A stretch of 63,892 bases of DNA, filler included, from Kipferlia bialata (lineage: Eukaryota): the NCBI GenBank assembly GCA_003568945.1. It is 6 parts of 6 records of this genome, joined end to end, with 100 filler letters (N's around TTAATTAATTAA, not from the genome) between each part and the next. Parts side by side here need not be neighbours in the genome. Positions count along the whole stretch, not along the records: positions 37,322 to 49,650 come from BDIP01001098.1; 5 more parts are not named here. One strand, given 5' to 3'. Positions within the stretch are counted from its first letter, which is position 1, and each line of letters starts with the position of its first letter. Positions 12,683 through 53,263 of this stretch are shown in pieces. Both the position numbers and the translations under genes were made by a program. The notes below the pieces were generated by a model. That model ran no database searches, was not told the origin of the DNA, and was given only the letters and a program-made list of their open reading frames with translations.

Positions 12683-13706
12683 ACTCCCCCCTAGGCAGAG
12701 GGTGCTGGCTGAACGGTGGATACTGCGGCTGAGGTACTATTCTATATACAGGCCTTATAGTTCACTCTCTCTGCTGACTTCACCGTGTGACCATGACCCA
12801 TTCTCTCTCTCTCCCTCTCTCTCTCTCCCCCTATATATCTACCTACATATTTGTGTGTGTTTCTAATAACCCCAGGGGCTATGACTTCACTGTGTCCACA
12901 TCCTCTCCTTCTCTCTCTTTCTGTCTTTATAGATATATACCATATAACCCTAGGGGCTATGACTTCACTGTGTCCCCTGTCACCAAGACCCATTCTCTCT
13001 CTCTCTCTCTGTCTCTCTCTCTCTCTCTCTATCTTTCTATAACCCCAGGGGCTATGACTTCACTGTGTCCCCTGTCACCAAAACCCATGATCTCTCTCTC
13101 TCTCTCTCCCTCTCTCTCTCTCTTTCTATCTGCCTGTATATATATAGATATATCTATCTAATAACCCCAGGGGCTATGACTTCACTGTGTCCCCAGTCAC
13201 CAAGAGACGCAGGAACAACTATGCACGGCTCCTGTTGTATCAGGCATACACTGTATTCCCCCCTCCCCCTTAGTGCATTCCTGAGTCTCTTTCCCACTGT
13301 CTAGATGCCCTCTCTGCTCTCTCTCTCTCTCTCTCTCTTACCCTAGATTGAGACCGACTCTAGACTGTCCTACCCCTTCACTGATGAGCCCATGGACAGT
13401 GTTCACATATATGTGTATATACATATACAAGTGTGAATACATATCTAATCACAGATTGAGACAGATTCAAGGCTCTCCTACCCCTTTACTGATGAGCCCA
13501 TGGACAGTGTGGACCTACCTCCCCTGTCACCAACCACACTCATGTCGGTGGCTGCACTGTCCAGTCCTCTGCGGTAAGTCATATTGTTATATTAACGTTT
13601 CTCTATCCACTTTGTTGTACACACCTTACCACAGTCTCCCTGTCCCCATCTTCTGTCCACTGTTCACATGTTTGTATATGTATATATCAGTCACTATTAT
13701 ATGTTT

Positions 13707-13741
<35 letters not shown>

Positions 13742-16700
13742 GTACCTCACCCTCCAGCCTCCCTGTCCCCACCTTCTGTCCCGTGTCACCCACATCACGC
13801 ACTCGGATAGACCCAGGTATGGGAGTAATATTATCAAATCCATATAGTACTACTCTATTATTGCGTATATCCCGCACTCTAGTATGTTCACTGTGTCCCT
13901 GTGTCTTTCGAATCTCTCTCCCTCTCTCCCCTTATCTCATATCCATCTGTTTGTAGTGCATATACACGTTGGCTATTTGCATTGTATATATCTGTATCGC
14001 TCACTCTCCAGGCAGCAGTGCATACACACGTCCCAGAGGCCCCAGGTCCAGTGGGAGGAGGAGGGAGAGAGACCTCTCACCGCCAAGGTTGGGAGACAGT
14101 ATTACGGATACATGTATTCCTTGGAAAATAGTAGTCATCCCATACGTCAGCGGAAGTTGTACTTCCCCCACCTCCTTCACGCACACACCCACATATATAG
14201 TAACATATATATTAATGACTACCAATGCTATACTATTCTATATCTTAAACCTAGCTGTGGATCAGATGGTGATGACGCCTCCCCCACCTCGTTCATGTAT
14301 ATATATATACATATACCTATACCTTATATTATATGATACGTTCACCACTATATAGTATTCCAACACTAGTTGTGGATCAGATGGCGACGATGCCTCCCCC
14401 ACCTCGTTCACACATATATATATATATGTATATCAGTATTTGTGTCATATCTAATGTATATACACAGTGTCTAATGCCAGTTGCGGCAGTGATGGTGATG
14501 ACGCCTCCCCCACCTCGTTCACCCCCAAGGAGAGGGACAGGGTGAGGGAGAGACAGAGAGAGAGAGAGGGGGAGAGGGACAGGGTGAGGGACAGGGTGAG
14601 GGAGAGGCAGAGGGTATCACACACACAAGGCAATGACTACGATAGGGGTGTAGAGGGTGAGAGAGGGGGAGAGGGAGTAGCATCTATCCACCCCCAGCCC
14701 CTGATGGATATAGTGGTGTCACCCACACACTATAGGGAGACAGGGATAGGGAGGGAGAGAGCATCACCCAGACACTACAGAAGTAGAGAGGGAGAGAGAG
14801 AGAGAGAGTATGCTGTGTCTCCCCCCCACCCATCGTATGCTGGAGTGGCCTTAGCAGCCAGGGAGAGAGAGTTGCAGAGGAAGCTAGACAAGGTATGTGC
14901 ATATAACTATTGGTATTGATGTGTAGCACTACCATTCCCCCTTACCCCCAGGCCAGGAGGAGCAAAGCCAGTATCAGTATACTATATTATACTATATTTC
15001 ACTATACCATACTATTCATAGTGTATACTGCATTACCATATTAATACCCCCTGACCCCCAGGCCAGGAGGAGCACAGCCAGTCTGAGGGACACCATAGAC
15101 ACACAGGTACTAGGCCTAGTAGTGATATCATAAGTGTTTAGTACCCATATACGCATGTGCTCGTGCCATTGACCTTCTGTCCGATTAGAGTGCCAGTCTC
15201 TCTCTCTCTCTATCTCCCCCCCAACCACCCTCTCTCTATATATATGTGTATTTACCTATAGGCCCATCGCATTGACCTCCTGTCTGGTGAGAGTGCCAGT
15301 CTCTCTTTCTCTCTATATGTATATATATATATATATGTGTGTGTGTATGTTTATATATAAGTACTAACCTCTAGGCCCGTCGTATTGACCTCCTGTCTGA
15401 TGAAAGTGCCAGACGCTCACTGCACTCACTGTCACCCACAGTCATACAGGTACGGATAAATCAAGTAGATCTCATTACATATATATTATGAGACAGAGAG
15501 GTTATGAGAGTAGTCACTATATATATTGTAAGTTCTGGCTGCCATGATATTCTATTCTCTCACTCCAGGCCCCCGATAGGACACGGGGCAGCCGCATACT
15601 GCAAGAGAGAGAGGTGGAGAGGGAGAGAGCGAGGGTGAGGGAGAGGGATGCTCCACTGACCCTAGAAGGCCTATCACCTGCGTCAGCATCACGGTACGTC
15701 AGTATTCATTTACTATTATAACATATGATTATGACAGAATTATAGTGAATAGTGTATGATATATAGTAATACATGTCTTCTTCTCATCCAGGGCCCAGTA
15801 CACCGCTGATGCACACAGAGATGCACATAGGGCAAGGGAGAGACATACAGCAAGGGAGAGAGTGGGTGGCAGTCCCAGGATGGGGTGGGATGGGGTGTCT
15901 AGGGAGAGGGAGAGTGCGGTGAGTGTGAGGAGGAGAGGGGGGGAGAGAGACAGGGATTCGGATGATGTCATCATAGACGAAGGGTTCCTGGACCAGATGA
16001 GTAGGTATAGCACTATTATTACTGTACAAATTTTGTGATAATATATTCTAATGTATTGTCTATTCATGCAGTAGTTCTTTCGTCGTGAATATTGAGATCA
16101 GACAGTAGTTGTTCCCATGGTATATCTATGTATCTAGTCTCACCCCAGATATCACCAGGAGACTCTTCGGAGAAGCCAGATTGGCACATGAGGGGTAGTG
16201 GAAGATAAGGAGAGTGTATTATAGTGTGTTTCGCGTTGTATAAGTAGTAGATCAATTGATTGTGAATAAAGGGTTCATAGTTTTTGATTCTTCTACACGC
16301 TCCACTTAGTTGGTGAGATATGTAAACCGTCCTCTCTTGCTTCCAACTCTCCCTCCTATTGGATGTCCACCCGTGGTGTATCTGCACGTCCAGCCCCCTC
16401 TACCTTCCACCGGGGGCCTGTACCCACAGGCACAGAGAGTGAGAGCGACACGCCTGTCTCCTACACACTCATGTCTGCACGCCCCTTTCCTACCCACTGT
16501 GAGGCACAGATGCTTGACTGTCCCTACCCAAAGGCCCCATCACTCTCCATACCCATCATACCCACCAGTGAGAGAGTGTTAGCAGCCCCTGCAACCGCTC
16601 TCCCTGATCTGACCCCCATAGAGCCTATCCCCTACACGGAACACAACATGTCACGAGACCCTGTCATAAGGGTACAGCAGTACCAGGTGGGTGTGGGTAG

Positions 16701-27900: not shown

Positions 27901-30900
27901 CTATAGATATACCATAGCCGCCTGTCTGGCCAGTGATACTGTATAAATACACAACATATACTAATATTTGCCTCTTATTAGCATATATCTAACCTTGAAT
28001 AGTAATCAGTGATGCCGTCTGCCTTGCCAGAGGCTGGTCCAGGTCGTTGAATGAGGCAATGGTGTGGGTAGAGACACCCACAGAGGAACGGTTCTCCTCG
28101 ACCCTGGGGGTGAGGCCCCATAAGCATGGTATACTCCAATATATATCTCTCTCTCCCTATATATGATTATTAGTCATATATAGTAGTGATAGTAACTAAA
28201 CCCCCCATCCTGTGTCTTTATGCCAGTCTTCATGTCATCCAGTGCCTCATACATATAACTACCATCCTACATATTACTATATCTCTCTATATATGTGTAT
28301 ATACTATTAGTAGCAAGTATACCTGCCGTCCAATGTCTTGATACTGGCCTTTAGGTCATCGAGTGCCTCGTACAGATCCCTATATATATATACACACATA
28401 CACAGTATGAATATATACAATACCTTCCGTCCAACGTCTTTATGCTAGCCTTCAGGTCATCCAGTGCCTCATAGAGATCACTGCTGGATGTGATGGACCC
28501 AGCCACGGTGTTGAGGTTCTTGTTGACCTTGCCCACCTCCCTGTCGACATAGCTCTGAGGTGAGATATCAGTGTCTCTGACTAATACATATATATATATA
28601 TATATGTGCATAAAATACACTCGTGTTGACCTTGCCCACCTCTCAGTCGACATAACTCTGACGGTTAGGATGGAGACAGAGAAGGTAGGTAACGTAAATG
28701 AATAGAATACTTGCACACATATACCCACTTCAGACACTTCTCCGGTTGTGTGCCTCTCAGACATATATAGTATTTAGACTCTATACATCAAATGTAAATG
28801 AACACCACACTACCTTCAGATATGTCTGTTGCTGTTTGAGCTGCCCTATGCTGCTGCCTGTCTATCTCACATATATATAATTATATATGTATATATATAT
28901 GTGTGTGTGTAATACCTTGAGATATGTCTGCTGCTGTTTCAGCTGTCCAATGCTACTGCCTGTCTCTCTGACATGTCTCTCCACATAGATCCTATTCGCC
29001 AGGGGCATGATGACACCCACAGTGTTGCCCTGATGTAAGAATATATATATATATATATACATATAGTATGAATATAGACACGTGAGTATATATGATATAT
29101 ATCCTGTTGGCCAGGAGCATGATGACACCCACAGTGTTGCCCTGATGTGAGAGAGCCATTACGGATAGAGAATGAAGTCTAGCGAAAGCACAGAGAGAGA
29201 CACTAAATCTCTAGAAGAGGGAATCATATTTACTATAGGAGCTCAGAGAGCAGAATGCTGAAGATAGAGTGGGAGGGAAGGGTGAATCCTCCAGTATCTC
29301 ATTCGTAGAATTCGGGCGAATAATATGATACAATAATGCGTAAATTCTAACTGCCATACCCTCTCTGCCTTCTTGGCATACTATACACTTATACTATGCA
29401 TATATCTGCCATACCCTCTCTGCCTTCTTGGTCAGCTGGTACTGGATGCGGTGCATGAAGTCCTGGGGTGGGTGTATACATATACATATACATATTAATA
29501 ATGTATATACAAAATGTATATTAATGCAGAAAGGGACGAGAGGAGAGACAGGAAAGGGGGGCGGTGCATGAAGTCCTGGGGTGAGTGTAAATTATACATA
29601 TATATATATAATGTATACACATTCCATATACATTAGGCGGCGAGAGTAGAGAGGTGTGGTGCATGAATTCTTGGGGTGAGTGTATAATATTTGACGAACG
29701 TGTGTTGAATACGTTGCAGAAAGGGGAAGAGAGGAGAGAGAGGAAAGGGGGGCGTAGGGAGAAGAAGGACGAGGGGAGAGATAGAAAGAGGAGGGGGGGG
29801 GGGGGGGGGGGGGAAGAGGAGGCAGGGTCAGAGGCAGACACTATGAAAAGAACTATTGCAATGGATATTGACTAACGTGTCCAGAACCACTATACCCCAT
29901 ACCTCTGCCAGTGGGGCATCGGGGTATACTACATAATGTGTATACTATATACTGTGTATACATATATATTAATACATATATAGACAGTGACCATATACAC
30001 ACCTCTGCCAGTGGGGCATCGGGGTATGCAGCATCAAGACCACCAGCAAAGGCAACCTGGAAGGTCAGTACATAGATATATAGTATATATAATATACAGA
30101 GAATATGCATATATAATGTACATATACAAACCACCGGCAAAGGCAACCTGGCATGTCAGTATACATCAGTTGTCAAAGTAGGTAGTATCCCTATCCATGT
30201 ATAGTATTAACCTATATACAAAGATAGAGATTGTATATCTACAGTGCATAACTGTCTCAGTATCTTGATGAATGGTACTGGGTACATCAGTGGCAAAATA
30301 CCCGTAGAGTTATTATCCACATATTATCCACATATATATATATATAGTATACATATATATTAACACATATTTAATGGTATACCTGTCTCTGTGTCTTTAT
30401 GTCAGGCACTGGGTGCCTCAGGGGTAGGGACAGGGTGTGGTGACCAGGGGTGGGGGGGAGGGGGAGGGACCCGTGGCCTGAGGGTCAGCAATGGATTTCA
30501 CTGAATCCACATATCATACATTACATACAGACCTATAGACACTCTAGTGCCAGGGGTACCAGTACGAGGGTCGAAATCTGTACATATATACACACATATA
30601 TATACACACATACTAACGATGGGGCTGTGCCAGGGGTGGAGAGGCATACATATATATATACATGAGTATATATATATAGTGTCAATATCCATAGCATATG
30701 TACCTATTAATGATGGCGCTGTGCCCGTGCCAGGTGTAGATAGGGCCCGGATGAACAAGGTGGGGGTCTGGAAGGGCTTGCCTAGAGTGAGGGGGAGAGA
30801 GAGAGAGAGAGAAAGTCTGGAAGGGCTTGCCGAGTGAAGGAAAGACAGACAAATACATACCTGTAGACATACATACACAAACAAGGAATGTATCAATCAT

Positions 30901-37321: not shown

Positions 37322-37505
37322 GCTCACAGAGGCACTAGTTACTAATCGAGAATGCTATTATGTATATACATTAGTACATAGTCATCCTTACCCCAGGCTG
37401 CCCAGTATGCCGCTGCCACCCATGGTATATATACATGTATATACGATATTTGTAATTATATAAGTAATACTAGTATATATCATAGTATACAGTCCTTACT
37501 CCCAG

Positions 37506-38926
37506 GCTGCCCAGTATGCCGCTGCCACCCAGGGTGCAGGGGCAGGGTATGGACAGCAGTACGCATACGCATACATGCCAGGTGGGTGTAGAGTGTACAC
37601 ATATATATATTGTAGATGCGTATGGATACCAGATGGGGATGATACCCCCTCCCCATATTTACCACCACCTTGGCTCAACTCTCTCCCCCCCCCCCCCTCT
37701 CTCTCCCTCTCACTCTAGGTGTCTCCTACCAGTCCTAATACACCATGACTGTCTTTTTTTCTCTCTCTCTATATATATATATATATGTGTGTGTCTCACT
37801 CCAGGTGTCTCCTACCAGTCCTACTACACCATGCCGGTCTCTGTCCCAGTGGCACAGTACTCCAAGAAGCTGGGGAGGAAGCTGGTCGAGTTCAAGCCAA
37901 GGTATGTATATACTTGTATATAGTCATATTCTCTCTCTCTCTATATATATATACACTCACCCCAGGGATGACGATGACAACATTGTGCCCCATGGGTTCA
38001 ACGTCAAGAGGTGGTTTGACTACCAGGTACCCTATGCCTATCATACAAGTATTATACATATTTGTGTATAGTTGTTGTATATATTTGTAGTATATGTATG
38101 TAGTTGATATAGTATCATCGTGCCCCATGGGTTCAACGTCCAGAGGTGGTTTGACTACCAGGTAAAGGGTGCATCTATTATGTGTGTAATAATAACTAAT
38201 TACTATTTAGGTATTATATAATGTCTAACCTTTAAGATTATTAAGCACGAGGAGCTGAAGAAGGACAATTCTATGATGATGTGGTGTACATTAGTTGTAG
38301 AATAATATTTATTTCTCCCCATCTCCTTCTAACCCTAGCACGAGGAGCTGAAGAAGGACAAGAAGAGTAGTATTAATATATATTTATATATATGGTATAT
38401 GTATAGTATATATATACTATATACGTGTCTAACCTTAAAGCACGAGGAGCTCAAGAAGGACAAGAAGAAGAGTATATATAGTATATACGTATAGTATATA
38501 TATATATATATATAGTGTATATATAGTCAGTACTTCTAACCCCAGCACGAGGAGCTCAAGAAGGACAAGAAGAAGGCCCCCAAGTCCAAGAACGGGTTTG
38601 GGTTCCCATTCGGCAGGGCACTCGGAAGGGTGGAGGCAAAGTGAGTATTGTCATATATATATGAACACTCTTAGTATACCCATTTCTTACGCGATAGGTA
38701 CGGAGGCACCACCACTGCCTTCTTTGCCCTGGCCAGGTGGTTCCTGATGCTCAACCTCTTCCTGTGTGCAGTGTGGATTGGACTGGTGGTACTGCCAAAC
38801 TACAGGTATACTCTCTCTCTCTCTCTCTCTCTCTGTCATGTTAATATAATAGTAAGTATGTGCAGTGTGGATTGGACTGGTGGTACTACCCAACTACAGG
38901 TATGTATATTATAGTATATTGTATAG

Positions 38927-38958
<32 letters not shown>

Positions 38959-39234
38959 TGTATATATCTCAGGTATGGTGTATTCTAGTATATATAAGAT
39001 ATATAGTGTAGCAGTGTGGACTGGTGGTGCTGCCAAAGTACAAATATACCCCCCCCCCCCTCTATACTCCTAATATCCAGCGATGCCCCCATCCCCGACT
39101 CCTACTGGACAGACTCTCTCTCTCTCTCTCTCTCTCTCTCTACACCCTTATTCCCAGCGATGCCCCCATCCCTGACTCCTACTGGACAGACTCCTCCCTC
39201 ATAGACTTTGCAACAACCCTGGTCACATGGGCAG
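37506..39234 (+). CDS. Transmembrane channel-like (TMC family) protein, N-terminal fragment
   Basis: Spliced FPFGRALGRVEAK-YGGTTTAFFALARWFLMLNLFLCAVWIGLVVLP resembles the TMC pre-TM1/TM1 signature (L..IE..FG..V.SYF.FLRWL..LN). Confidence 0.72.
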
Positions 39235-39406
39235 GTATATATATATTTTGTATATGGTATATATATATACATAAGAGAAGGGGAGAGGGAGTATATATGT
39301 AGTGTGTATATATAGTATCTATCATAGACTATGCAAAAACCCTAGTCACATGGGCAGGTATCTATGTGTAAAAACTCCTATATTGTATTGGTGTTCTCTC
39401 CTGCCA

Positions 39407-39437
<31 letters not shown>

Positions 39438-39706
39438 TTTCCCCCCCTTCCCCCCCCCCCCCCCCCCCCCCCCCCGTGTCTCTCTCGTTTAACTCGACAG
39501 CATTGTTTGACCCCTAGGCTAATGAAGAAGTATTCGTTTTGCATGTGTGTCCGTTTATGTCGTGTATCTTCTCTTCCATTCTGACCCACCACTTCTCTCT
39601 CTCTCTCTCTCTAATACTTAGGACTGTGTATACGTTCCGTCTCCTGCCTCTTCTCCTCCATCATCATCACCAACCACTTCTCTCTCTCTCTTGCTCTAAT
39701 TCTAAG

Positions 39707-42700
39707 GACTGTGTGTCCGTTCCATATCGTGCCTGTTTGCCTCTATCCTGACACACCACTCTGATATGTCTGTGGATGAGCTGCCCCTGTCTCTCTCTGT
39801 ACTCAAGGCACTCAATGGGGTGACATCCCCGGTTGACATGGCTGCACTCATACACACTGCCAGAGAGCATTACGAGGAGTCAGGTAATAGTTATATATTG
39901 TATTTTTACCTAATTCTTGTGTTGTTCCATGCTGCATACATATTGTAACATAGTCTTCTTCTCTAACCCCCAGAGAGCCATGAGAAGGAGCGCCTTCGGA
40001 ATGCCGAGCCAGACCTACCATCCATACATGCCCTGAGGACATACATACACAGGTGAGATACTTTATTAGTTTCTAACTAATCAGAATTACCATGACTCTT
40101 CCATACATGCCCTGCGGACATACATTCACAGGTGTGGTACAAACATAAACATATACTCTTCATTTACAAATTATACACATATTATGGAATATTACAGTTC
40201 TATTATTGTAATATGTGTCATCTCACACTAGGGAGAGAGAGATGGGTGGTGGGTATGGAGTAGGGATGACATCAGGGGAGAGAGAGAGAGATGATTTAGA
40301 TGAGTTTGAGACTCTGGAGCAGGAGGAGGAGAGGGAGAGGGAGAAGGAGAGAGAAGAGCATGTGCAAGAGCAACAGTCTGAGGAGGTGGGTGTCTAGAGA
40401 GGATATGATATGGGAATGCTTAAATTTCTGGACCTCTAACCCATTAGGACTCCGGTGTCATCTACAACTGCATGGCTCTGAGGCAGGGTCTGGATCTAGC
40501 TGTCAAGGGAGGACTGGAGGTAGAGGGTGAATCTTACGGTAGCAAGGGTAGCCCTAGAGGGTCTCGGGGTGTGAGGCATAGCGATGAGGGTGTCATCATG
40601 ATATCCTTGTGCGAGGTGTCTCTGCAAGAGTTGGCGATGCTCAGCGACATCATTCCTTCACTGTCCGGCAACCTCATAGGTGAGCGTATATATTACTACA
40701 TATGTGTGTGTGAGACCATGTGTTAAGTATATGTGTATGTGGAGACTAGTATGTGCCTCTTCGAATACTGGTGCTGACTCTCAGGTGTCCATATTGATGG
40801 CTCTGCCCCCCCTACGAGTGTCTTCCACTCCATCCTAGAAGAGGAGGCCAAGGGGGCAGCAAACACCCTAGGGGGTACATCACCACTGGCATCACCTGCT
40901 GCAGAGGGGGGAGTGGGACCAACGTCACCAGTCCTGTCAGATATAGGTAAAATTACCAATAGTCACATACTATACAATATACTCTATACTCTATATGATT
41001 TATATAACAATGTTGTGTGTGATATATATCATATGTCCATATTCTTTTCAGCTAACCCCAGCGCTTGGCCCCAAGGAGACACAGATTAGTATTATGATAT
41101 ATCTACCCACTTAAGAGTATTCCACTAACTATAGGCCTGGACCCCGAGGAGGCCGAGAGGGAGAAGGAGAGGGAGAGAGAGCGTGTCTCTGACTCTGACA
41201 TGCAGTATGAGCTGGTGTCTCTGTTCAGCTCTCTGGGTGCAGTCTATAGGTTCAGAGAGCTCAGCCTGCGGTCGGTCAACCTCACAGGTGAGAGAATACT
41301 TCTATTAGATCTAATGTAGGTGACTGTATATTATTAGTTAGTCAACCTCACAGGTGGGATGACTGTATACTTTACATATTTGTATACTTGACTCTGTGTT
41401 CCTCTAATAGCATTAGGTCTTGCCTGCGATGCCCTCGTGTGTCTATTAGACATGAATATACACATTATTGTAGTGACTTGTCTTATTCATTTTATTAGTA
41501 CTAGGCCTAGTATAGTATCTAATCCACAGGTCTTGCCTGTGATGCCCTTGTGTGTCTATTAGACCAGTCCACACACCTACACACCCTGGACCTCACAGGA
41601 TGTACACTGGATCAGGTTGGTTTATGTACTGTATTGACTATAGAAACAGGTGGTCATAAATGGTATATATTTTGGAGGTAGGACTCTTTCTACCCCCAGG
41701 ACGTTGCCCGTCTTATCGGCACTTCCATCTCTCTTATTCTCTGCATATATATGTATTGTATCTCCACTCCACTATGTTCTTACCCCAGGACGTAGCCCCT
41801 CTCATCGGTGCCTCCATCTCCAGTCTCAGACACCTCCGGCACCTATCATTGTACTCCCTCACACCCCTTGCCACCGTTGCAGCTGGCATGCCATCCCTGG
41901 ATGCACTGGTCAGACTGACACACATCGACATGGCATACTGCTACTCGCAGCGGTTCTTATCCATGATCATGGGGGTAGGGGCAGGTATGCGAAGATGTGT
42001 ATATGTCAAATGAATCTTTTGTTGTCTAATGGTGTATATATTCACACCAGGTGGCAGTGACTGTGACCCCGAGGTTGACATAGGCAGTGAGGTCATCACC
42101 AGTCCATACCCATGCACATCAGGTAGAGTATTGTAGGACAGTATATATATGAATTACAGACATATGGCTGTGCATATGAATTTGTGTCTCGCATACCCAT
42201 GTACATCAGGTGCGTTAGACGGGATTAATTATTACATGTATGTACTCTGGTGTCTGTAGTTGTGATGGTTTGTGTGCATGCCACTGTCTGGTATATATCT
42301 CACCCCAGGCCACTACGGTCTGCTCTCATCCCTCAGACACCTCACCACCCTCAATGTCACTGGGTGCCAACTGAGTGCTGAGAGGACAGCACACCTGCTG
42401 AAGGTAATGGATATACTCTGTATTGTGAGGGGAGAACAACAGTATACCATACGATATACAACATGAAGATGGGATAGTGATGGACAGCACACCTGCTGAA
42501 GGTAGGGCCATGACGTATTGTTGATTATCATATAACCGGCATCTAACCCCCTCAGGCCGTGACCCCCTCTGAGTACGGTGGATGTCCCATGCTGAAGGAG
42601 TTGAATGTCAGAAACAACACCTTCCACGCCTGCACTGCCTCTGCCCTCGCGTCCTGTCTCTCTCTCTCCCCATGTCTCACGAACCTTGATATATCCTGGT

Positions 42701-43014
42701 CCCACCTAGGCTCTAGGCTCTTCTGCCACCTCATTCCATACATCACAGACAGCAACCTGGTATCCTTGAACCTGACCTCCTGTGATCTAGGAGACGAGGC
42801 GTGTTTCAGGCTATTGGCGGCTCTTTCTGCATGTCCCACATTGAGAAGTCTCCTCTTAGACTATAACGGGATCACTCTGAAGGGTGCCAATAAGATGTTG
42901 AAGGAGGTGGCACCTGCCAAGCATGTGTCAGTCAGGATGATGGGTACCAACCCCATAAGATGTAGTCTGTTTGACAAGAGAACAGTCGGGAAACTGGTAA
43001 CACTAGACAAATAG
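39707..43014 (+). CDS. Leucine-rich repeat protein (RNI-like), 5' truncated
   Basis: Repeated LxxLxLxxN/CxL units: LHTLDLTGCTL, LTTLNVTGCQL, LKELNVRNNTF, LTNLDISWSHL, LVSLNLTSCDL, LRSLLLDYNGI; TAG at 43012-43014. Confidence 0.88.
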
Positions 43015-43123
43015 AATATTGATACGTCGTACACAATGTGTACTACACATGATGATGATTAGGATCTATTCTCTGTATTATTCCAAACCAATTGTTCAGA
43101 GAAAGAGTATCCCTTGAAGTGAT

Positions 43124-46100
43124 TCACTTCTCAGATGTAGTCACCAGCATCACCATACGAGTGTCACTGGATCCAAGGCGTCTGACCAAGACCTTCCCAT
43201 AACGCTGACTGTTACTCATGCAGATGAGATTAGTACTAGTAGAGGTGGCTAGAGGTAGCCTCACCTGAATCTTTCCGTCCTCTGGGTACAGACTGCATAC
43301 GGTTTGAACACAGGTACGTATCTGCTCACGGAGTGGATCGGCCATAATGGTCATCCTAACGCTCTCTGAGGGGTTAAGCAACCTAAGAAGGATAATGCAC
43401 GATGTACGTATGACATGGCGAAGACGTCAATCCATATGTGTGCTGGTATAGTAAGTACTTTCGGACTCTTATCAACGCGTGTGCATATCTGGATACAAAC
43501 ATGCCTTGTAGTCATTAATCTACTTACCAAAATAGTTCAGTTGCTGAAGGGTTGCGATAGCATGGAATACCATCCCGTCATCGTCCTTGTATCTATATAG
43601 GGCAGTTAGGAGCACATCCAATACCCCACTACGATGCAGTATATGCATGTCCTGGATACCTGTCCATTATATTCAATACTTTATACCTAGCTATCTCTTC
43701 AATTCCAGGCTAAGGACGATATATATATTACATGGCTATCGTGATAGTACTCACCGCAAGACTCCGTCACCCGTCGAAATAGAATTAGGACATGATCAGC
43801 AATTTCCTTAGCATCCGGAAACCGTTCGAATGCTGCAATCGCTTGAAGATGTCCGTTACCGGCCATGAAATATCGCCACCCTGCCATATTGGAAACGTTA
43901 CATGTAGGAGGACTATTTGATAGGATATATGTATGCGATATGAATCATATTATGGACATACGTTGCTATATTTGAACTAGATTCACCATTGAGACATATA
44001 CAGAACAGTTTCAATTATTCTCTCGATGCAGTAATGAATCATTACTAATGATATATATCTACCTTTGGAATCCCCGGGGTCTACCTCGCCGATGAGGTTT
44101 GTCATCGCGTAGGTACTTCTGCACACCACACCTTGGTCCCACGGATATGCACGTGCATGCCGCAATAAGAGGTCAATGAACCCTTCTTCTACCAACGGTT
44201 TAACCACTGATTGACCTGGGGAAGACAGGCGATATTCTTGGAAGTTATAACCTAGTTATAGCATACACGTATATATGTAACAGTAAGACAGCATACCCGC
44301 ACATGCTATGGAGCCCAGGACAAATGCACCATCGGAGGCAACACGATGACTTAAGAGACCTGGAGTTGAGAGGTGAAGTAGTAAACTTAGATCGACGTCC
44401 TCATGGATGTTACATAGAAACAATACATATCTGGTAGGTAGTGACTACGATACATAGAATAGTCCCACCTAATGTGTTGAATGCGTGTCCCACGATCAAC
44501 CTGGTCATATTCGTCTCCTTTTCCTCAATGTCAGAGCTGTAGCTATCTGTGTAAGAGCATATACATTCCATGACACCTGAAGCGTATACATATACATGCC
44601 ACACTCATTCACTGTATACTGGGTTACATATATCAAACCTTCTAGATCGTAGAACATCTCCACCATACTGGCCAATGCACTTTCGACTATGGGAACGAAG
44701 GCCTTCTCTCCACTTGGAGTGTACTGCCTCATAGCGCCCTGAACGATATTCAGGAGAAGATCAAAACCCCCAACCCTAGCAACGGGTCTGCACAGGGAAT
44801 AGTCTGGGGATTAGTCATCACAACTATGTATGTAACCATACTACATTGAATAGTTTAGTTTCTATAATTGATTGAAGTGGTGATTGATGAAAAATACGGA
44901 ATACGTACTTTCAAGCATGAGCTTCAAGAACTGTGTGGTAGTCTGGAATATCTCCAATGGGTTTCTGTAAGCACAGTACTTCCTGATGGCCTTAAGCAAG
45001 GGAGATACAACTCCCAGCTTCCAGAGGTAATCAGTGAATCCATGCTCTGGAATAGTTAGAAAACTGTCTGAATTACACATAGAGGGGCACTAAAGTCATG
45101 AAGTAGTACCTCAATATACACAGATAATCATCTACTAAATGGATCAAGAGCTCACACATGCCCAACATATATGTACTTACGATATACAAATAGTAGCAAT
45201 ATCATATGATGAATAGAGGGATATACCTGTCTCGACCATGTATTGGAGAACCTTCACTGTCCAGACAACAGTTTCGTCATATTCTGGATTGGGATTCTCT
45301 AGAGTGGCCTTGAGGATGTGGAGACCTGCGCACTTGGTACCAATGTACTCACAAGTAGGGAAATCTATCATGAGAGACAATGTAACGCAACGTACAAATT
45401 GGGCATCATTCATGTCTACAATATACTTATATATGTGCTACGATTATGATTACCTCCTTTGCAAAGATGTGCCAAAGCTACCGTCCCACCATGTAGGAAG
45501 AGAACTGGAAGCACTTTCATGAACTTTACAATAGAGTTTAGGCACTTGGCTTCCCTCAAAGCTTTCAGGACACCGTCTGCGGATGAGAGACACATAAGAA
45601 AATGGCGTATAGCACACATATAGATATATTCTATATATACTGAAGAGGAGTATGTATATATTCATAATACACACTACCTGAGCCTCTCTCTGCCAGTGTA
45701 GTGAGCGTGTACCAGATGAGATCACGCAGATGATCTGTAGCGTTCCTGTGGCTCATGACAGAAACCAGGCGAGGGATAACCTGACACTCACACATGATAG
45801 GGCAGAAGTCCTCATCTGATGTGAGACACTTCACTCCAACTAAGGAAAATTGTGTTTGTTCAACACATTGAGGAAACATAAACATTCTATCACAGCCTTA
45901 CCTTCACATAACATCATGTAGGATAAGAACGGGACGCACTCGTTGTACACCCCAATGTTATTTCTCTGAGTCAGAGGATGACTGTTCATGGCGGCGAGTG
46001 CCACCCTTGGATAAGCGTATGGTAATTGGTGGTAATAATTGTTCTGGTACAGTAGTACTATGATAGTACCCAAAGAGGTAGTGTATACTCCACTTTACAA

Positions 46101-47996
46101 CTAACCTGTGTACCCCTCTGTCTACTAGGAGATGCTTGTGACCTGATGTAAGAGGATACGGCATCAGCAAAGAAATATCCACAATAACACTATACGTAGG
46201 GAGTATGTACATAGATGGTTGAAACAATAGCACCAAAATATACATGTATAATATATCCTGTATTGTCTGTTCTACCTGCTATGGACCATGTGTTCATTAC
46301 ACGCATCACAGCTTCTGCAACCTGCTCATCGTCTTCTCCGTGATTGTCATTACACGCTAGCAGTACCTCCATGGCAACAGGGTCATACTCTGATAGTCAG
46401 CAACAGTGATATATTCATATTCATATTTCTATATATGTCTGTGGAAGTATGGGAAGGGGACTGGTAATAAGAGCCGTAGGTCATGCGACATACGAGGCAC
46501 TACCACAACCATATACATTCTAAACAATACCAAGTGATTGTGTATATGATACCATAGGAAGGCATACCACGATAAGTGAGGTCAGACTCTTATCTATATA
46601 TACTCTGACTATCAACATGTCATCACTAATATATGTATATCATCAATATTATGAGTACTACAATATACAATGTCCACAATATACCTCCATCTAGGTTGGA
46701 TCCCACCATGACGGCTGACAGACAGAGATCCTCATCTATCATATTCTCCATGATGATTCTGATGCAGAGAGGGAAGAGGCCCAGAGAGGCTAGGATACGC
46801 CGAGGTTGGAGCGCTGAAAGTGAGACGGATAAATTACCACCACCACCATAATACAATCTAAATACACAATACACCCCACCTGGACGCATCATTTCATATA
46901 TCTCGTCCAGTGCGTCTTGGAGGACAGCGGTACTGTAGCTACCCTGCAACATAGTACGGAGCCTCTCATTCTGCAGCCTGGCTATCAGAAGAACCCAAAC
47001 ACCCACATGCAATGGGAATATATGTACAATGAAAGAGTCATTGCAAATGTAAAAGGACATATAATACTCGACTGTGTACTACTGGGACATGAGGCGGATT
47101 CATATACATCTGTCTGACCTCAGATCACTCTCATGGATACGACGTATGGGACCTTCCACCTCTGTCACTGGTACTGATTCAACCTCTTCATCCTGGATAA
47201 GAGCTCAACAAGTATATGTAAAACCGCAGTACTATACCGGTCACAAGGATCAAACTATCTCGCCAACTTATCAATATATATGTGTATGTACATACTGAAG
47301 GTGAAAGTGTGTATCTTCATACCTGGCCAAGAATAGCTATCTGGCCAACTAGGTAAATATCCGGTAATTGATTGGATAGATCTACTCTGTATTCTGTATC
47401 AATACCTGTCCAAGTATAGTCCTGCATGCATCCAGAGGGCAATCTGACATACAAGTTGGACACTTAGATACAGGATTAGTCTCTGGAGTGAGACCACAAC
47501 ACATGTATGTATATGGGTATATATACTCATGGATAAGAAAGTTGGAAGCACAACTTATGGAAAGGGGGGTATATACTCACTGCTATACCTAGCGCGTTGG
47601 CGAGACATGTCCCATGGAACAGGTGTCCACAGGGGGTTATGAGGAATGGGTCTGGATATGAGTGATCAGAGCGCAGAGAGAGAGATAGAGCAAGGGTGAG
47701 TGACGGAGAGCAAGCGTGACTGTATACATCTCGTAGAGTGGTGGATAGAGAGAGAATAAACGATATGGAATACATCACCTTTGAAAGGGGGGGGGGGGGG
47801 GATTTCCTACTAGCTACAATGATGATGTTAGGGGGAAACTAGCTTTCACTAGTGTTGACTCTCTGTCTATATATGCATCTGTATATCTAACTACACATAC
47901 AATAGCTGAGGATACATAATATATATGTCAGAGCATGAGAGAAGATAATGCCCTACCTTCATTGTGGACCTTGCATATTGCACATGTCAATAGCAT
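43124..47996 (-). CDS. RING-H2 finger plus armadillo/HEAT-like repeat protein (putative E3 ligase)
   Basis: Spliced MLLTCAICKVHNE-DPFLITPCGHLFHGTCLANAL-ETNPVSKCPTC (C3H2C3), followed by ARM-like helices (CQVIPRLVSVM..LIWYTLTTLA, LGVVSPLLKAI, EEGFIDLLLRHA); TGA at 43124-43126. Confidence 0.8.
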
Positions 47997-48298
47997 AACC
48001 CAGCTGATGCAGCAGCAGATGCAGTCCGAAAGGTCTCACTGAGAGGGTTAAGTTTGATGTGATTCGATGTAGTCAACCCTTTTGTCAAAATGAACTTTTT
48101 GCTAGACGCTCTGTCTCGAGGTCTCCACTCCCTCTCTACCCAATCGAGCCTGGCTGCCTCTTACAAGTGCGAGAGACTTCTTGGGGTACTAGTATATACA
48201 AGCTGGAAACCTATAGGAGCTGTTAGTATCGCCACTGTGACCCATTGTGTCTGGGAGTAGCTTCCTAAAGCTCGAGAGAGAGAGAGAGAGAGAGAGAG

Positions 48299-48334
<36 letters not shown>

Positions 48335-48335
<1 letters not shown>

Positions 48336-48416
48336 TGGTAGGAGACCTGTCGGGATGGCTGCTCAAGAGGGACAGGATGCTGAGGCGGTGGCACATGCGC
48401 TACTTTGTACTCTCAG
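48335..48416 (+). CDS. PH-domain protein, first exon only
   Basis: MVGDLSGWLLKRDRMLRRWHMRYFVLSG (PH beta1-beta2 pattern GWL.K...W..RYFVL), then a GTGAG donor; the gene stops at the poly-G near 48490. Confidence 0.8.
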
Positions 48417-48674
48417 GTGAGGATCAGTCTATCAGTCAATGATACATTGGGTGTATATACTGACTCCCACTCTCACTCTGTATTCTTGGGGGGGGGGGGG
48501 GGGGGGAAGGAGGGGGGGGGGGGGGGGGCGACATCACAGTGAGAGACACTGGGAGAATAGCACACCAATACAGAACTCCCTAATATCCACTGTCCAATCA
48601 GCTACACAGGAGTGGGCGAGTGTATGTGGAGTATATAGTATGTATATATAGAAGTCTAATGAGATATATCGTAC

Positions 48675-48767
48675 CGTGCATGATCCCCCACATGCACTCC
48701 TGGCCAGTGACCCAAGTGCACCCTTGGTGACATTGGTCACAGACACAGACCTCAGTGCTGACAGCAT
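48675..48767 (-). CDS. First exon of a protein with a mitochondrial/MRO presequence-like N-terminus
   Basis: MLSALRSVSVTNVTKGALGSLARSACGGSCT has no acidic residues and is Ser/Leu/Arg-rich, followed by a GTACG donor. Confidence 0.45.
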
Positions 48768-49316
48768 TGGTATATATATGATAAAGAGGGAGACGTTCGG
48801 TGTCTTTGCTTGTCCGTCAGATTCGACGTTTGAGAGTTTGAGTCAAAACACCCACATATTGCAGCTACCCGCGTAATCCCAAGACACACCATTAATACTA
48901 ACTAATCTATTCACCCCCATTGCGTGTACCACTATACGACTCAGTAATCAGAGAGCCACATTGCGTGGTAAGTGTCAACGCAATGTAAGAGCCTAACTGC
49001 TACCAGCTTGATCTTAACTCTCACAGGAATACACCTCTGTCTCTCATTCCATACCCACATGAAAGGGCATTGTAAGAGAGTAATACGACAGGAGGAAGAT
49101 ACTTCCGCGTGCCTGGCAGTGACTGAGGAACATAGTGCATACTAGACTCACTCTCCCTTTCCGCCTCTCTCGATCTCCCTCTCTGCGGAGAGCACAAGCC
49201 GACGTGTCCAATTGTCTAGTGGACTCTCTCTCCCTCTCTAACCATCCACTCTATCTCTGTGGTTTCCGATCTCTCTGTCTCTCTCTCTCTCTCAATCCCC
49301 TCTCTCTCTGTGGTAC

Positions 49317-49396
49317 CTAGTCAATGTTGCTCTTGGATATCCGAGCCACCAGTCTCATGTATGTCACGGTGGACAGAGGGGACCGGAGGACAGTGA
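49317..49396 (-). CDS. Terminal exon of a hypothetical gene
   Basis: CTAACCGTAG acceptor then TVLRSPLSTVTYMRLVARISKSNID-TAG; frame supported by synonymous-only shadow copies. Confidence 0.65.
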
Positions 49397-49650
49397 CTAC
49401 GGTTAGAAGAGTTATATATATAGAAAATGTGGATATATGTCTAGATATGAGATGTATGTCACGGTGGAGAGAGGGGACCGGAGGACAGTGACTATGATCA
49501 GATAGGGTATATACAGAGTATTTAGGTAATCATATACAGATATGCAAGACACACGTATGTCACGGTGGATAGAGGAGAACGGAGGACAGTGACTAGAGTG
49601 AGAGGCGGGTGGGGGGGGGGGGGGGGGGGAAAAAAAAAAAAAAAAGAGGA

Positions 49651-49750: not shown

Positions 49751-49801
<51 letters not shown>

Positions 49802-50159
49802 CTGATGCACTAGAAATTTATATCATGGCATTTGAGCACTCCACCTATGCTGGTGATACAACTATTATTACATATCAATGCCTACCCCACCTCCATCAGA
49901 GAACGAGTCAAAGTCGTCTCCGTAGTCAGACATTCAGACAGGGATCGAGGTCGCGTCCCTCGCCCTCTCTCTGAAGCAGCGTCTACCCTGCTCTCTACAG
50001 GTACTAGGATATGCCTCCAGTGGTGGTGTCCCCAGGAAGCAGGTGGAGAGTATGGCTGGCGGACATATACTGAAGAACCCAGATCTACACCCCTGTTTTT
50101 GAGTCGGTTCCAGACTCAATGGCCGCACTACGGCAGTCTTCTTTAGACAGGCCGTGTGG

Positions 50160-51580
50160 ATGTCTGACCACACCCCATGCGACGGGGCTCCATCCTCGGA
50201 GACCTCTGACTTTGATCTGAACCCTGTGTCGCCCCCAGCCGAGCCCTCCGATGCCCTGGTCGGTATGGATGTGTCTAAGGTGCCCCTCGACCCCTTGGCA
50301 CTTAGGATGCTGCACATGTCCATGAGGATAGGGAGGGTGTTCCTGGTGCTGGCATGCCTCGCATACGCCGTATGCACAGTCATAGCGATTCAGGTGAGAT
50401 GATATGATGCATCGTTGCATATATATACGGTACTCTACTCTATTTGGATTGCTTGAGTATTATTGTGGTCTCCCTCTCTCCCTAGGAGTCTGTCGTTGAC
50501 TACTGGCCAGACGATGCTCTGTCCAAGCTGGGAGTCCCCACTGATGAGCCTGCTAGCAGTGGTTGGTGAGTGTATCCACTCAGTCAATATCCTTTCCATG
50601 CACTCACTATCATCTCACGAGCAGTCCTACAGCAACTCTGACACAATTTCCTCCCCTTCTTCTATTCCTTAATGTTACCTTAATGTTAGGCTAGTGGTTT
50701 GATCTCTCTACCTCCCCCCCTCTCTCTCCCTCTCTCTCTACGTTTCACACGCTGTACTCTATCCAATACCCAGGTACAATGGCGGTATCATTGTGCTTGC
50801 TGGTGGCCTCCTCATCCACCACCTGCCAGTGTTCATGTGGATCCAGGTGCGCCCTCCCCTGCCTGCCAGACCCCCTAGGGAGAAGGCAGAGGGTGTCATG
50901 GGTATGGTCAAGGGTGTGCCAGGGTATGTGCTGCCCCACAAGGCAGAGGCTGTCATGTGGCAGATAGTGTCGTGGTGCCTGCTCCTTGACTTTGTGGGAC
51001 TCATGGGGTCTGGGTGAGTTGGCGTGCATATGTATATCCGTATATCGAATCATACCATAGGCAGTGTGCCATTGTGTACCTAACCCCAGGTTCCTCAATG
51101 ACAGCTATGGGTGGAAGCACCAGAAGAGTGTCACGGTGTCTGCTGTCGCTGCTATTCTGGCCCTCCTGCTCATGATACCCCTCACCTTGCACTCCAGGTA
51201 TCAGTATCAGTCATACTCTATATATAGTGTTGGTGTGACAAGTCTTGTGACAGAGCCTCCATATCTGATCACAGACGCACTGCCTGTTTCCCCCTGGGCA
51301 CCCTTGGGATGCTCCTCCTGCTAGAGCTGCTGGGCCCTAATAATGTGGGCCTTGTGCCCTATGCCGTGTATGAGCTGGGGGGCATAGTGGGTGGGTGGAG
51401 TGTGTGTCTTGCATGTGTATCCATATGGTATATATATTGTTTTGTAGATACACTTGACTGACGGTAGGTGCTGTTGGTGTCCAGGTGTCTGCCGGATACT
51501 GCTGTGTCGAGTACCCTAGGGGCTCTATTGATGTTGTACCCGTAGCAAGTGAGGATGTGAAGGAGGAGGTGGTTGTGTGA
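50160..51580 (+). CDS. Unknown multi-pass membrane protein, family paralog 1
   Basis: Six exons; LDPLALRMLHMSMRIGRVFLVLA, YNGGIIVLAGGLLIHH, WQIVSWCLLLDFVGLMGSGFLNDSYG; clear homology to the genes at 51974-53195 and 57325-58388. Confidence 0.8.
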
Positions 51581-51973
51581 GACACAGCAGATAGGTTCCG
51601 TTGCAATGTCAATGTCACTTGCATCATCACCTTCCAGTATAGCCGTTCTGTGAGTATTGTATTCCTTATAGCAGCGCAGAGTCCTTGGCAACCATATTTC
51701 ATGTATACTTGGTCGAATAGAGTGTGTGACATCTATGTGTGAAAGGTCCTGACACATGGAAGGGTGTATAGCCTCAGAGGGGAAGCTACGTTGGAGTGCA
51801 ACAATTCAGAGACTTCCAAAAGCAGTCTCGTTGACTCATATGCTGGTTGATGTATACACGAGAGGTACATATCGGACCTCTCGTGACAACAAGGAAGTCC
51901 ACACGCTGCTATGACTAAAGACCCACTGCCGCAATTTGCTCAGAGGCAGTGGCAGACTATAACTATACGCCTA

Positions 51974-53195
51974 TCAGGAAGACACCCCCCCACCCCTTGC
52001 CCACTCTACCGCTGAGTACCCTGCTACGTACTGTATACCGACCATGCCCACCAGACCCCACATCTCAAACACGGCATAGGGCATGACACCCAGGTGGTCA
52101 TCGCCTAGGGGGAGGCAGGTCAACATGAATACAGTCACACCAGCTGTGGCAAAAAGGGCACGGCTGGGGTGGGAGGGGATGTCGATTGATAGTGTTCTAC
52201 AATCATAGTGTCCACTTATGTATACACCCAACCCTCGGCATATACCGGAGTACAAGTAGATACAAAAGAGAGAGAGAGAGAGAGAGTCCCCACCCCGAGT
52301 GCATGTTGAGCGGGAACATGAGCAATAGGGCCAGGATGGCTAGGCCTGCGCTCTCCTTGATGACCTCTCGGTGCACCCTGGGTCAGTATGAGTATCAGTA
52401 TCATGGTACCGGTTGACACAGACTGATGCTACTGGTAGATACTGATACTGGTGCTACCTGCCAAAGGACCCATTGAGGAACCCGGATGCCATGAGTCCTG
52501 CAAAGTCAAGGAGCAGGAACCACGCCACCACCCTCCAGAGCACACTCTCGAGGGCTGGGGGTAGAACTAGGTACCGCCTCACCGCAGGAGACTGGTACCA
52601 CTTATCTCCTTGTGAGTGTATGGTGTCTGTCTTGGGCGGGAGGGGGGGCCTCAGAGTGACCCAGACCAGAAGGGGTATGTTGTGGATGAGCATACCCGCA
52701 CACACCACTATTAGAGCTCCATTATACCTGGGTCAATGCGACTAACGAAGACACTGGAAGAATGGAATAGAGTAGGGAATAGAGTGCTAGGGAGTGCATA
52801 TGCATCCACCCACCATCCGCTGCTTGCCGGCTCTTTGTAAGGGTTACCAAGGCACGACATCGCCTCTGAAGGCCAGATATCCTCGACTGAGTTCTGGGAT
52901 GAGAGGTATTCAAAACAAGAGTGTTACATCAGAAATGACTCCCCACCTGCACTCCAACCACACATCCCACAATGCACATGACAGATGCCAGCAGCAGGAA
53001 CACCCTGCCCAGCCGCATGGACACCCTCAGCATCCTGAGGACCAGGGGGTCAAGGGGGGGGAGGGATGGAGACACATCCTCAGTAAATTGGGGTAGAGCA
53101 GGGGCAGGAGGGGGGATAGGGTCTAAGGGGTAGTCAGAGCTCTCCTCTGCGGATAGAGTGACTAGATCAGAGGTGGGAGGTGCAGTGTCCACCAT
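51974..53195 (-). CDS. Unknown multi-pass membrane protein, family paralog 2
   Basis: LDPLVLRMLRVSMRLGRVFLLLA, YNGALIVVCAGMLIHN, WRVVAWFLLLDFAGLMASGFLNGSFG. Confidence 0.8.
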
Positions 53196-53263
53196 AACAC
53201 GGTGTAAGAGAGATGCTCAGGCAGGTTGGTCACTGGAATCTCTTTTGCCAAGGGGGCTAGCAC

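What the first reader, a model, noticed from the sequence alone, without database searches (positions are those of the whole stretch)
39538..39765. Deeply diverged shadows conserved at protein level
Three versions of one exon start lie in tandem: the real LCVRSISCLFASILTHH (39707), LCIRSVSCLFSSIIITNH (about 39622, with its own CTAATACTTAG acceptor) and MCVR-(1-nt deletion)-MSCIFSSILTHH (about 39543). Many third positions differ while replacements are mostly conservative (V/I, I/V, A/S, L/I). This is ortholog-level divergence, so the intron appears to archive ancient or foreign versions of the exon.
Basis: partly seen in the sequence, partly recalled or inferred. Interest (0 to 1): 0.78.

Follow-up and report, generated by a model that had tools for sequence, protein, structure and literature searches.

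The report
Introns archive diverged exon-end versions
In the free-living protist Kipferlia, 67 of the 116 introns examined hold dead partial copies of the neighbouring exon's end that differ from it mostly at silent codon positions, so they were likely copied from other working versions of the same gene and would record genetic diversity that is otherwise not seen in this genome.

Summary
The window is Kipferlia bialata. Two dead copies of an exon start (39543, 39622) precede the spliced exon (39707); one RNA-like contig skips both. They differ at codon positions 1/2/3 by 3/0/8 and 5/0/8.

The pattern is not local. Nine gene models gave 134 such half-exon 'shadows', in 67 of 116 introns. Four-fold sites differ 23%, zero-fold sites 4.1%: ratio 5.5 (CI 4.4-7.2), against 1.6-2.3 simulated for a dead copy of the same exon. 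Shadows carry synonymous changes private to themselves, yet their stops and replacements look neutral. So they diverged while functional and died recently.

Best reading (0.6): tandem duplications templated from diverged alleles during break repair or unequal exchange at microsatellite-rich introns, from at least three versions per site. No donor allele, paralog or second haplotype was found, so the source is inferred. My literature searches found no report. The scan noted one similar single case in a sea urchin (e1-9980835, not checked here).

The parts
39543..39592 (+). Shadow S1: dead copy of the exon start, 1-nt deletion, no acceptor at the matching place, no donor
   Evidence: zero X2 depth on 39480-39598
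39593..39621 (+). Spacer 1: (TC)n run, then branch point/acceptor CTAATACTTAG (39611-39621) of S2; scores higher than the acceptor that is used (4.0 vs 2.0)
39622..39677 (+). Shadow S2: dead copy of the exon start with one extra ATC codon; no canonical GT..AG route back into the exon; read-through is out of frame (85-nt offset) and stops
39678..39706 (+). Spacer 2: (TC)n run and the acceptor CTAATTCTAAG (39696-39706) that is used; S1 and S2 end at the same exon point (CAC T into (TC)n)
39707..39883 (+). Real exon of KIPB_004911 (P0001), phase 1
   Evidence: X2 contig 8 enters at 39705-39707 and splices out at 39883; 100% match to P0001
39404..39473 (+). Poly-C tract in the same annotated intron; the join to the upstream exons across it is not verified
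   Evidence: X1 contig 1 begins inside it
37506..43014 (+). Host gene model KIPB_004911, 17 exons, LRR C-terminus; 17 shadows at score >=16
28323..28381 (-). Donor-side shadow of exon 28554-28424: 9 synonymous and 1 nonsynonymous difference in 59 nt, GT kept
   Evidence: exon frame confirmed by P0002
28814..28872 (-). Donor-side shadow of exon 29029-28916: 7 synonymous differences and 1 stop at its far edge
13347..13409 (+). Acceptor-side shadow of exon 13455-13573: 7 synonymous, 2 nonsynonymous differences
   Evidence: frame from my own gene model

Best explanation
The shadows are dead half-exon tandem duplicates, and they were likely copied from diverged, still working versions of the same gene on another chromosome (alleles from a very diverse population, or from repeated hybridisation) rather than from the exon beside them. 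SHOWN: direct repeats of [intron end + exon start] or [exon end + intron start], median 32 nt of exon, unit about 100 nt, never on the wrong side of the exon; spliced out where RNA contigs cover them; strong codon-aware synonymous excess on every branch; slight neutral decay on top. INFERRED, step 1: a break or fork collapse near a (TA)n/(TC)n intron is repaired by pairing in the exon, the only part that still aligns between diverged alleles. Copying runs past the splice site and rejoins by microhomology, leaving the old exon end as a shadow and a new exon end in use; later unequal exchange between shadow and exon adds copies with the same junction. INFERRED, step 2: only products that restore a whole exon survive, and half-exons are ignored because the first donor and the acceptor paired with a downstream donor are chosen. 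INFERRED, step 3: shadows turn over fast (about 3-4% decay) compared with the age of the alleles (about 20-25% silent divergence, about 55% at the focal trio). The Dmc1-only, NHEJ-less repair kit reported for fornicates would favour mismatch-tolerant repair from a homologue.
For: Mismatches by codon position 73/1488, 53/1496, 248/1467; four-fold 165/717 vs zero-fold 111/2682; dN/dS 0.16, 0.13 trimmed. One shadow per exon side: ratio 6.6, p 1.6e-14 against 2:1. Simulated neutral shadow plus synonymous-only exon through the same detector: 1.6-2.3 in 12 of 12 runs. The two genes matched to outside annotation give 6.4 on 53 shadows. Codon-aware, not merely 3-periodic: third-position transversions 96/1537 if synonymous, 17/1337 if not. 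In 31 trios each branch has its own synonymous changes (exon 21 syn/6 non, near shadow 26/12, far shadow 28/32); the near-shadow branch exceeds 2:1, p 1.7e-4. AG kept 57/64 and GT 56/61, while the flanks are nearly as different as unrelated introns (27-31% vs 31-33%). No drift in codon preference (107 vs 104) or four-fold base composition. Simple repeats at 46/134 breakpoints vs 17% background. 0 shadows in 13 introns of four rough models in microsatellite-poor stretches. Sister shadows share a breakpoint in 27/59 pairs vs 19%. Metamonads lack NHEJ and fornicates lost Rad51A but keep two Dmc1 (PMC8516963, passages); Dmc1 tolerates mismatches (PMC8682777, abstract).
Against: No donor was seen. 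No second haplotype at >=85% likeness appears in the rows shown for 39480-43020, and X1 depth is flat at 444 over most bins (42 pieces not shown, contigs drop variants). The genome paper reports one scaffold coverage peak, though two k-mer peaks (PMC5874029 passages), so this strain does not carry 20% silent heterozygosity everywhere. No paralog in three protein searches (length-limited). Silent divergence near 0.55 among all three focal copies is far above the mean 0.23-0.25 and needs very old alleles or introgression. The far-shadow branch alone does not exceed 2:1 (p 0.12). A uniform star model overpredicts trios with two or more changed branches (16.9 vs 11, p 0.018), so loci differ. 22 of 134 shadows are identical to the exon. 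Seven of nine gene models are my own, and models were built only in the microsatellite-rich contigs.
Confidence: 0.6

Rival explanations
1. Each shadow was once a translated alternative (mutually exclusive) exon or half-exon in this same gene and was later cut down.
For: Would give purifying selection on both copies without outside alleles. Conservative replacements at the focal trio. The sea-urchin note e1-9980835 reads its case this way (unchecked).
Against: Only 3 of 134 copies reach within 10 nt of both exon ends and none aligns to both. 117 of 134 have no exact in-frame GT..AG route into the exon, yet keep ratio 5.95; with two codons of slack 79 have none and keep 5.3; S1 and S2 have none. 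S1 and S2 end at the same point yet differ from each other 6/0/7. All 5 listed RNA joints over shadow-bearing introns remove the shadows.
Confidence: 0.12
2. Shadows are spare parts: they convert or replace the exon end often enough that selection purges amino-acid changes from them.
For: Zero-fold mismatch rises from splice site to breakpoint, 2.2, 3.5, 6.3%. Splice dinucleotides are kept.
Against: Most of that gradient goes when 5 nt are trimmed at the breakpoint (2.9, 3.0, 3.6, then 8.4% on 167 sites). By inference, exchange frequent enough to be selected would also erase the 23% silent divergence, and collapse removes the shadow whatever it carries. Stops and replacements are at neutral rates.
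Confidence: 0.08
3. Scars of one ancient two-parent hybrid or allopolyploid that collapsed to a mosaic.
For: Silent divergence is fairly even across shadows (overdispersion 1.31 on 96 shadows). A single-rate model fits better than exponential times.
Against: With two sequence classes all three branches should rarely carry synonymous changes: 7 of 31 seen, 1.0 expected, 0 of 4000 simulations reach it. No homeolog found.
Confidence: 0.08
4. An unknown process changes synonymous sites in live exons much faster than introns mutate, so shadows are frozen snapshots of one lineage.
For: Needs no outside alleles. Far shadows carry more nonsynonymous change than near ones (32 vs 12), as a time series would.
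Against: Intron flanks of the copies are more diverged than four-fold sites, not less. Both shadows of a trio have private synonymous changes in 9 of 31 cases. No codon-preference shift between exon and shadow.
Confidence: 0.06
5. Assembly artefact: haplotypes or strains of a mixed culture stitched in tandem at microsatellites.
For: Short-read assembly, breakpoints at simple repeats, N gaps inside some arrays. X1 may be the same data.
Against: One 8223-nt X1 contig spans S2 and the exon with 0 changes at the usual depth, and another spans S1 into the S2 acceptor. Shadows carry frameshifts, stops and lost splice sites (29 of 134), which live alleles would not.
Confidence: 0.04
6. Ordinary tandem duplication from the adjacent exon followed by neutral decay.
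For: Explains the anatomy and the 22 identical copies.
Against: Ceiling of about 2:1 (simulated 1.6-2.3) against 5.5 (CI 4.4-7.2); even visibly dead shadows give 4.2, p 7e-4.
Confidence: 0.02

Closest known systems
Boundary-spanning tandem repeat with silent pseudo-donors, human F7 intron 7 VNTR (PMC1557585, abstract seen)
   Same: Direct repeats that include the exon end and splice site; the first donor is used and later ones stay silent.
   Different: One locus of near-identical repeats. Here both donor and acceptor sides, 67 of 116 introns, and divergence under past protein-level selection.
Internal gene duplication / intron gain by tandem genomic duplication (PMC3443670, passages seen; Gao and Lynch 2009 seen only as a reference title)
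   Same: Short intragenic tandem duplication hidden by splicing without changing the protein.
   Different: No new intron is made and the original splice sites stay in use. Existing introns lengthen (median 107 to 279 nt). Copies are not derived by neutral decay from the neighbour.
Mutually exclusive tandem exon duplicates (recalled; SCN-alpha exon 5 listing)
   Same: Tandem exon copies with synonymous-biased divergence.
   Different: Shadows are half-exons with one splice site, are frameshifted or stopped at neutral rates, and are not in the RNA contig.
MMBIR/FoSTeS template switching and one-sided invasion (PMC4888836, passages seen; one-sided invasion only as a reference title)
   Same: Local duplication with microhomology or simple-repeat junctions after break repair.
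   Different: Here it would be fixed in the germ line at about one event per intron and templated from much more diverged alleles; the template is inferred, not seen.

Membership tests
Mutually exclusive duplicated exons | Each copy is a whole exon with acceptor and donor | tested here: not met
   S1 and S2 have no donor; 3 of 134 copies come within 10 nt of both ends, none aligns to both
Mutually exclusive duplicated exons | Copy is included in some mRNA | tested here: inconclusive
   One X2 contig skips 7 of 7 shadows (score >=16) in the laid stretch; contigs drop rare forms and X2 being RNA is a guess, though its joints are GT..AG
Mutually exclusive duplicated exons | Reading frame kept under current selection | tested here: not met
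   11 of 11 aligned indels are not multiples of 3; 5 stops in 1398 codons. The in-frame ATC of S2 lies outside the local alignment and is not counted
Intron gain by tandem genomic duplication (AGGT type) | New GT and AG inside the duplicated unit are used as splice sites | tested here: not met
   Exact route possible in 17 of 134, none at S1/S2; 9 of 9 listed joints match the annotated outer sites
Boundary-spanning tandem duplication (F7 IVS7 type) | Direct repeat that includes a splice site and the adjoining exon end | tested here: met
   125 of 134 anchored within 5 nt of the splice site; 0 wrong-side copies
Boundary-spanning tandem duplication (F7 IVS7 type) | Extra splice sites intact but silent | tested here: met
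   AG 57/64, GT 56/61 kept; the shadow site scores as high as the real one in 25/64 and 38/61; skipped in RNA contig
Boundary-spanning tandem duplication (F7 IVS7 type) | Copies diverge neutrally from the adjacent exon | tested here: not met
   Four-fold to zero-fold ratio 5.5 vs 1.6-2.3 simulated
Inter-allelic break-repair scar (MMBIR / one-sided invasion / unequal exchange) | Microhomology or simple repeat at the junction | tested here: inconclusive
   Simple repeat at 46 of 134 breakpoints vs 17% background; true microhomology lengths were not measured
Inter-allelic break-repair scar (MMBIR / one-sided invasion / unequal exchange) | The template allele exists in the species or a sister lineage | not testable with these tools
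   No second strain held: metagenome scans empty, only organism A runs listed
Inter-allelic break-repair scar (MMBIR / one-sided invasion / unequal exchange) | Repair genes fit (no NHEJ, homologue-tolerant recombinase) | not tested
   Taken from PMC8516963 passages; no whole genome held here
Introner / transposon-derived intron insert | Same element dispersed across unrelated genes | tested here: not met
   Each shadow matches its own exon; 3 hits in 500 exon-by-foreign-intron pairs at the same score

The most novel reading that the evidence does not exclude
Kipferlia introns are a genome-wide molecular archive: mismatch-tolerant, Dmc1-only break repair keeps writing exon ends from many deeply diverged lineages (silent divergence up to about 0.55) into the intron beside each exon. 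One genome would then record hidden sex or DNA exchange among highly diverged fornicate lineages, and thousands of past alleles could be read from it.
Probability: 0.3. Interest if true: 0.9.

Novelty: new variant of a known kind. Interest (0 to 1): 0.76.

Why it matters
A dead duplicate should differ from its exon at most about twice as much at silent sites as at replacement sites; here the ratio is 5-6 across a hundred loci. If allele capture is right, a single genome yields allele trees, diversity and evidence of genetic exchange for a free-living relative of Giardia, a group where sex is an open question. It would also show a route of intron growth (median 107 to 279 nt) tied to an unusual repair kit, and offers hundreds of natural tests of splice-site choice, since stronger upstream acceptors such as that of S2 are skipped. 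If allele capture is wrong, the pattern still needs a process that is not described in the papers I could search. It also warns that shadows can mislead gene finders and read mapping in this genome.

Tried and rejected
No whole genome was held, so all counts are from this window. Relatives: metagenome scans with P0001 and P0002 confirmed 0 of 115 and 0 of 439 pattern hits; protein searches returned only the window's own proteins (1 of 36, 1 of 948, 1 of 51 candidates), limited by length class, shorter proteins not searched. No RNA holder on record was listed; X2 is a guessed RNA run. RNA support exists only for 39480-43020; the donor joined to exon 39707 lies outside that stretch and was not seen. 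Recombinase triplet tolerance as the cause of the 3-periodic mismatches: rejected, because the excess follows synonymy. Mutation bias by base: rejected, every base shows 19-30% at four-fold and 2-5% at zero-fold sites. Wrong frames: mismatch pairs fall at multiples of 3 in 415 of 850 cases without using frames. Gradient along shadows: mostly an edge effect. Conservative replacement window-wide: not significant. Dropped rows: 22 of 156 hits scoring 13-15, and hits with more than 35% simple repeat. Pfam found nothing in 10 ORFs from 43127-47078. The atlas look-up of the N-terminal region did not complete. Literature: searches listed no report of this pattern (listings only); the genome paper's main text has 0 hits for 'duplicat' and 'tandem'; its supplements were not viewed; subscription papers are not covered.

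Full report
Source and gene. The window is a string of contigs joined by N linkers. The exon at 39707 is 100% identical to part of NCBI protein KIPB_004911 of Kipferlia bialata, on a 12,329-nt contig that equals window 37322-49650 in length. Mapping that protein gives 17 exons from 37506 to 43011. One contig of run X2 (RNA by guess, but with nine GT..AG joints) enters the stretch at 39705-39707, leaves at 39883, and matches the mapped exons downstream; it has no depth on 39480-39598. So the third copy is the spliced exon and the first two lie in the intron.

The observation. S1 (39543-39592) and S2 (39622-39677) are as described. Codon-position differences are 3/0/8 (E-S1), 5/0/8 (E-S2) and 6/0/7 (S1-S2), with about 0.55 synonymous differences per synonymous site in each pair. 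All nine replacements against the exon are conservative. S1 has a frameshift and no acceptor at the matching place. S2 has an acceptor that scores above the real one (4.0 vs 2.0) but no donor and no in-frame route back. Both end at the same exon base and run into (TC)n. X1 contigs carry the same sequence, though X1 may be the source data. Alone, the trio is too short to exclude a 50% third-position share.

It is not one locus. I built nine gene models (125 exons, open frames); two match outside annotation exactly (P0001, P0002), seven are mine. Aligning each exon to its two flanking introns gave 134 hits at score >=16 in 239 tests, against 3 in 500 tests on foreign introns; 67 of 116 internal introns hold one or more. 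125 are anchored at a splice site. Exon starts are copied only upstream and exon ends only downstream; 3 come near full length. Introns with shadows are 279 nt at the median, those without 107 nt. Four rough models in microsatellite-poor stretches gave 0 hits in 13 introns (one of those models has internal stops).

The anomaly. A dead copy of the neighbouring exon can differ at most about twice as fast at silent sites (both copies change) as at replacement sites (only the dead copy changes). Simulation through the same detector gave 1.6-2.3. Observed: four-fold 165/717, zero-fold 111/2682, ratio 5.5, bootstrap over 91 exon sides 4.4-7.2; 6.4 in the two annotated genes and 4.8 in the rest. The excess follows the genetic code: third-position transversions occur at 6.2% per possible change if synonymous and 1.3% if not. 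It holds for all four bases and without using frames. In 31 trios the exon branch has 21 synonymous and 6 other changes, the near shadow 26 and 12, the far shadow 28 and 32. The near-shadow branch breaks the 2:1 ceiling (p 1.7e-4); the far one does not (p 0.12). All three branches carry synonymous changes in 7 trios, against 1.0 expected from two sequence classes.

They are dead now. Stops are 5 in 1398 codons, the neutral share of nonsynonymous changes; replacements are not significantly conservative; 11 of 11 aligned indels shift the frame. Shadows with no splicing route keep the full excess. AG and GT are kept like zero-fold sites while the flanks beyond are near saturation. Codon preference has not decayed (107 vs 104). 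This is the pattern of two working copies that diverged for a long time, one of which then died a short while ago.

Mechanism. Two working copies of one exon can coexist as alternative exons, paralogs, homeologs or alleles. Alternative exons fail on anatomy. Paralogs were not found. A two-parent mosaic fails the trio test. Many alleles remain. By inference, between diverged alleles only exons still pair, so repair that starts in an exon and copies through a splice site must rejoin by microhomology in the repeat-rich intron, which leaves exactly a half-exon duplicate; simple repeats sit at 46 of 134 breakpoints against 17% background. Unequal exchange between a shadow and a homologue's exon would then add copies with one junction but different codons, as at S1/S2 (27 of 59 pairs share a breakpoint, 19% by chance). 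A simpler variant gives the same result: an identical duplicate is later separated from its exon by recombination in a diverse sexual population. PMC8516963 (passages) reports no NHEJ in metamonads and loss of Rad51A with two Dmc1 paralogs in fornicates; PMC8682777 (abstract) reports that Dmc1 tolerates mismatches. I did not test these genes here. Silence of the extra sites fits first-donor choice as in human F7 (PMC1557585, abstract) and, for acceptors, exon definition (my inference).

Against this reading. No second haplotype shows on the one stretch laid, the genome paper gives a single scaffold coverage peak, and no other strain could be found. The donor pool is therefore inferred. The needed diversity (0.2 on average, about 0.55 here) is at or above the highest values I recall for eukaryotic species (from memory, no call), so introgression from sister lineages may be required.

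Known and new. Boundary-spanning tandem duplication is known; a genome in which most introns hold such copies with a signature of past protein-level selection was not found in eight searches or in the genome paper's main text. The scan holds one similar single-locus note from a sea urchin, which I did not check. Verdict: real, general in this window, unexplained by simple duplication, best explained by capture of diverged functional alleles (0.6); new variant of a known kind; interest 0.76.

Noticed in passing
window 37506-39234 and 39404-39473: The N-terminal part of P0001 weakly matches transmembrane channel-like protein 1 (residues 70-144, E 0.031) and stops short where the poly-C tract lies; the rest is an LRR protein. 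The gene model may be a mis-join of two genes at the poly-C.
   Followed up: partly
window 39508-39542: Upstream of S1 lies an acceptor-like motif and eight open codons (LMKKYSFC) in frame with S1's MCVR; S1 may preserve a longer, older exon start.
   Followed up: no
window 49751-58900 and 62170-63892: GC-rich (53-57%), microsatellite-poor (about 1%) stretches with no shadows, beside 43-49% GC contigs with 6-9% microsatellite and many shadows: two kinds of gene region in one genome.
   Followed up: partly
window 13243-13244: My model of the gene at 12683-16191 needs a GC donor here to keep the frame open; no RNA check.
   Followed up: no
window 55589-56010 and 56430-56919: Two tandem paralogs of a small membrane protein on the minus strand, 54-83% identical per exon.
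   Followed up: no
window 50151-51414 (+) and 53122-51986 (-): Two similar membrane-protein genes in opposite orientation, from rough predictions.
   Followed up: no
window 43100-49650: About 6 kb without clear genes or Pfam hits in 10 ORFs tested, low in microsatellites; possibly a decayed mobile element.
   Followed up: partly
window 3940-5100 and 830-1450: Introns with four to five shadows of one exon end in a row, two of these arrays holding assembly N gaps.
   Followed up: partly
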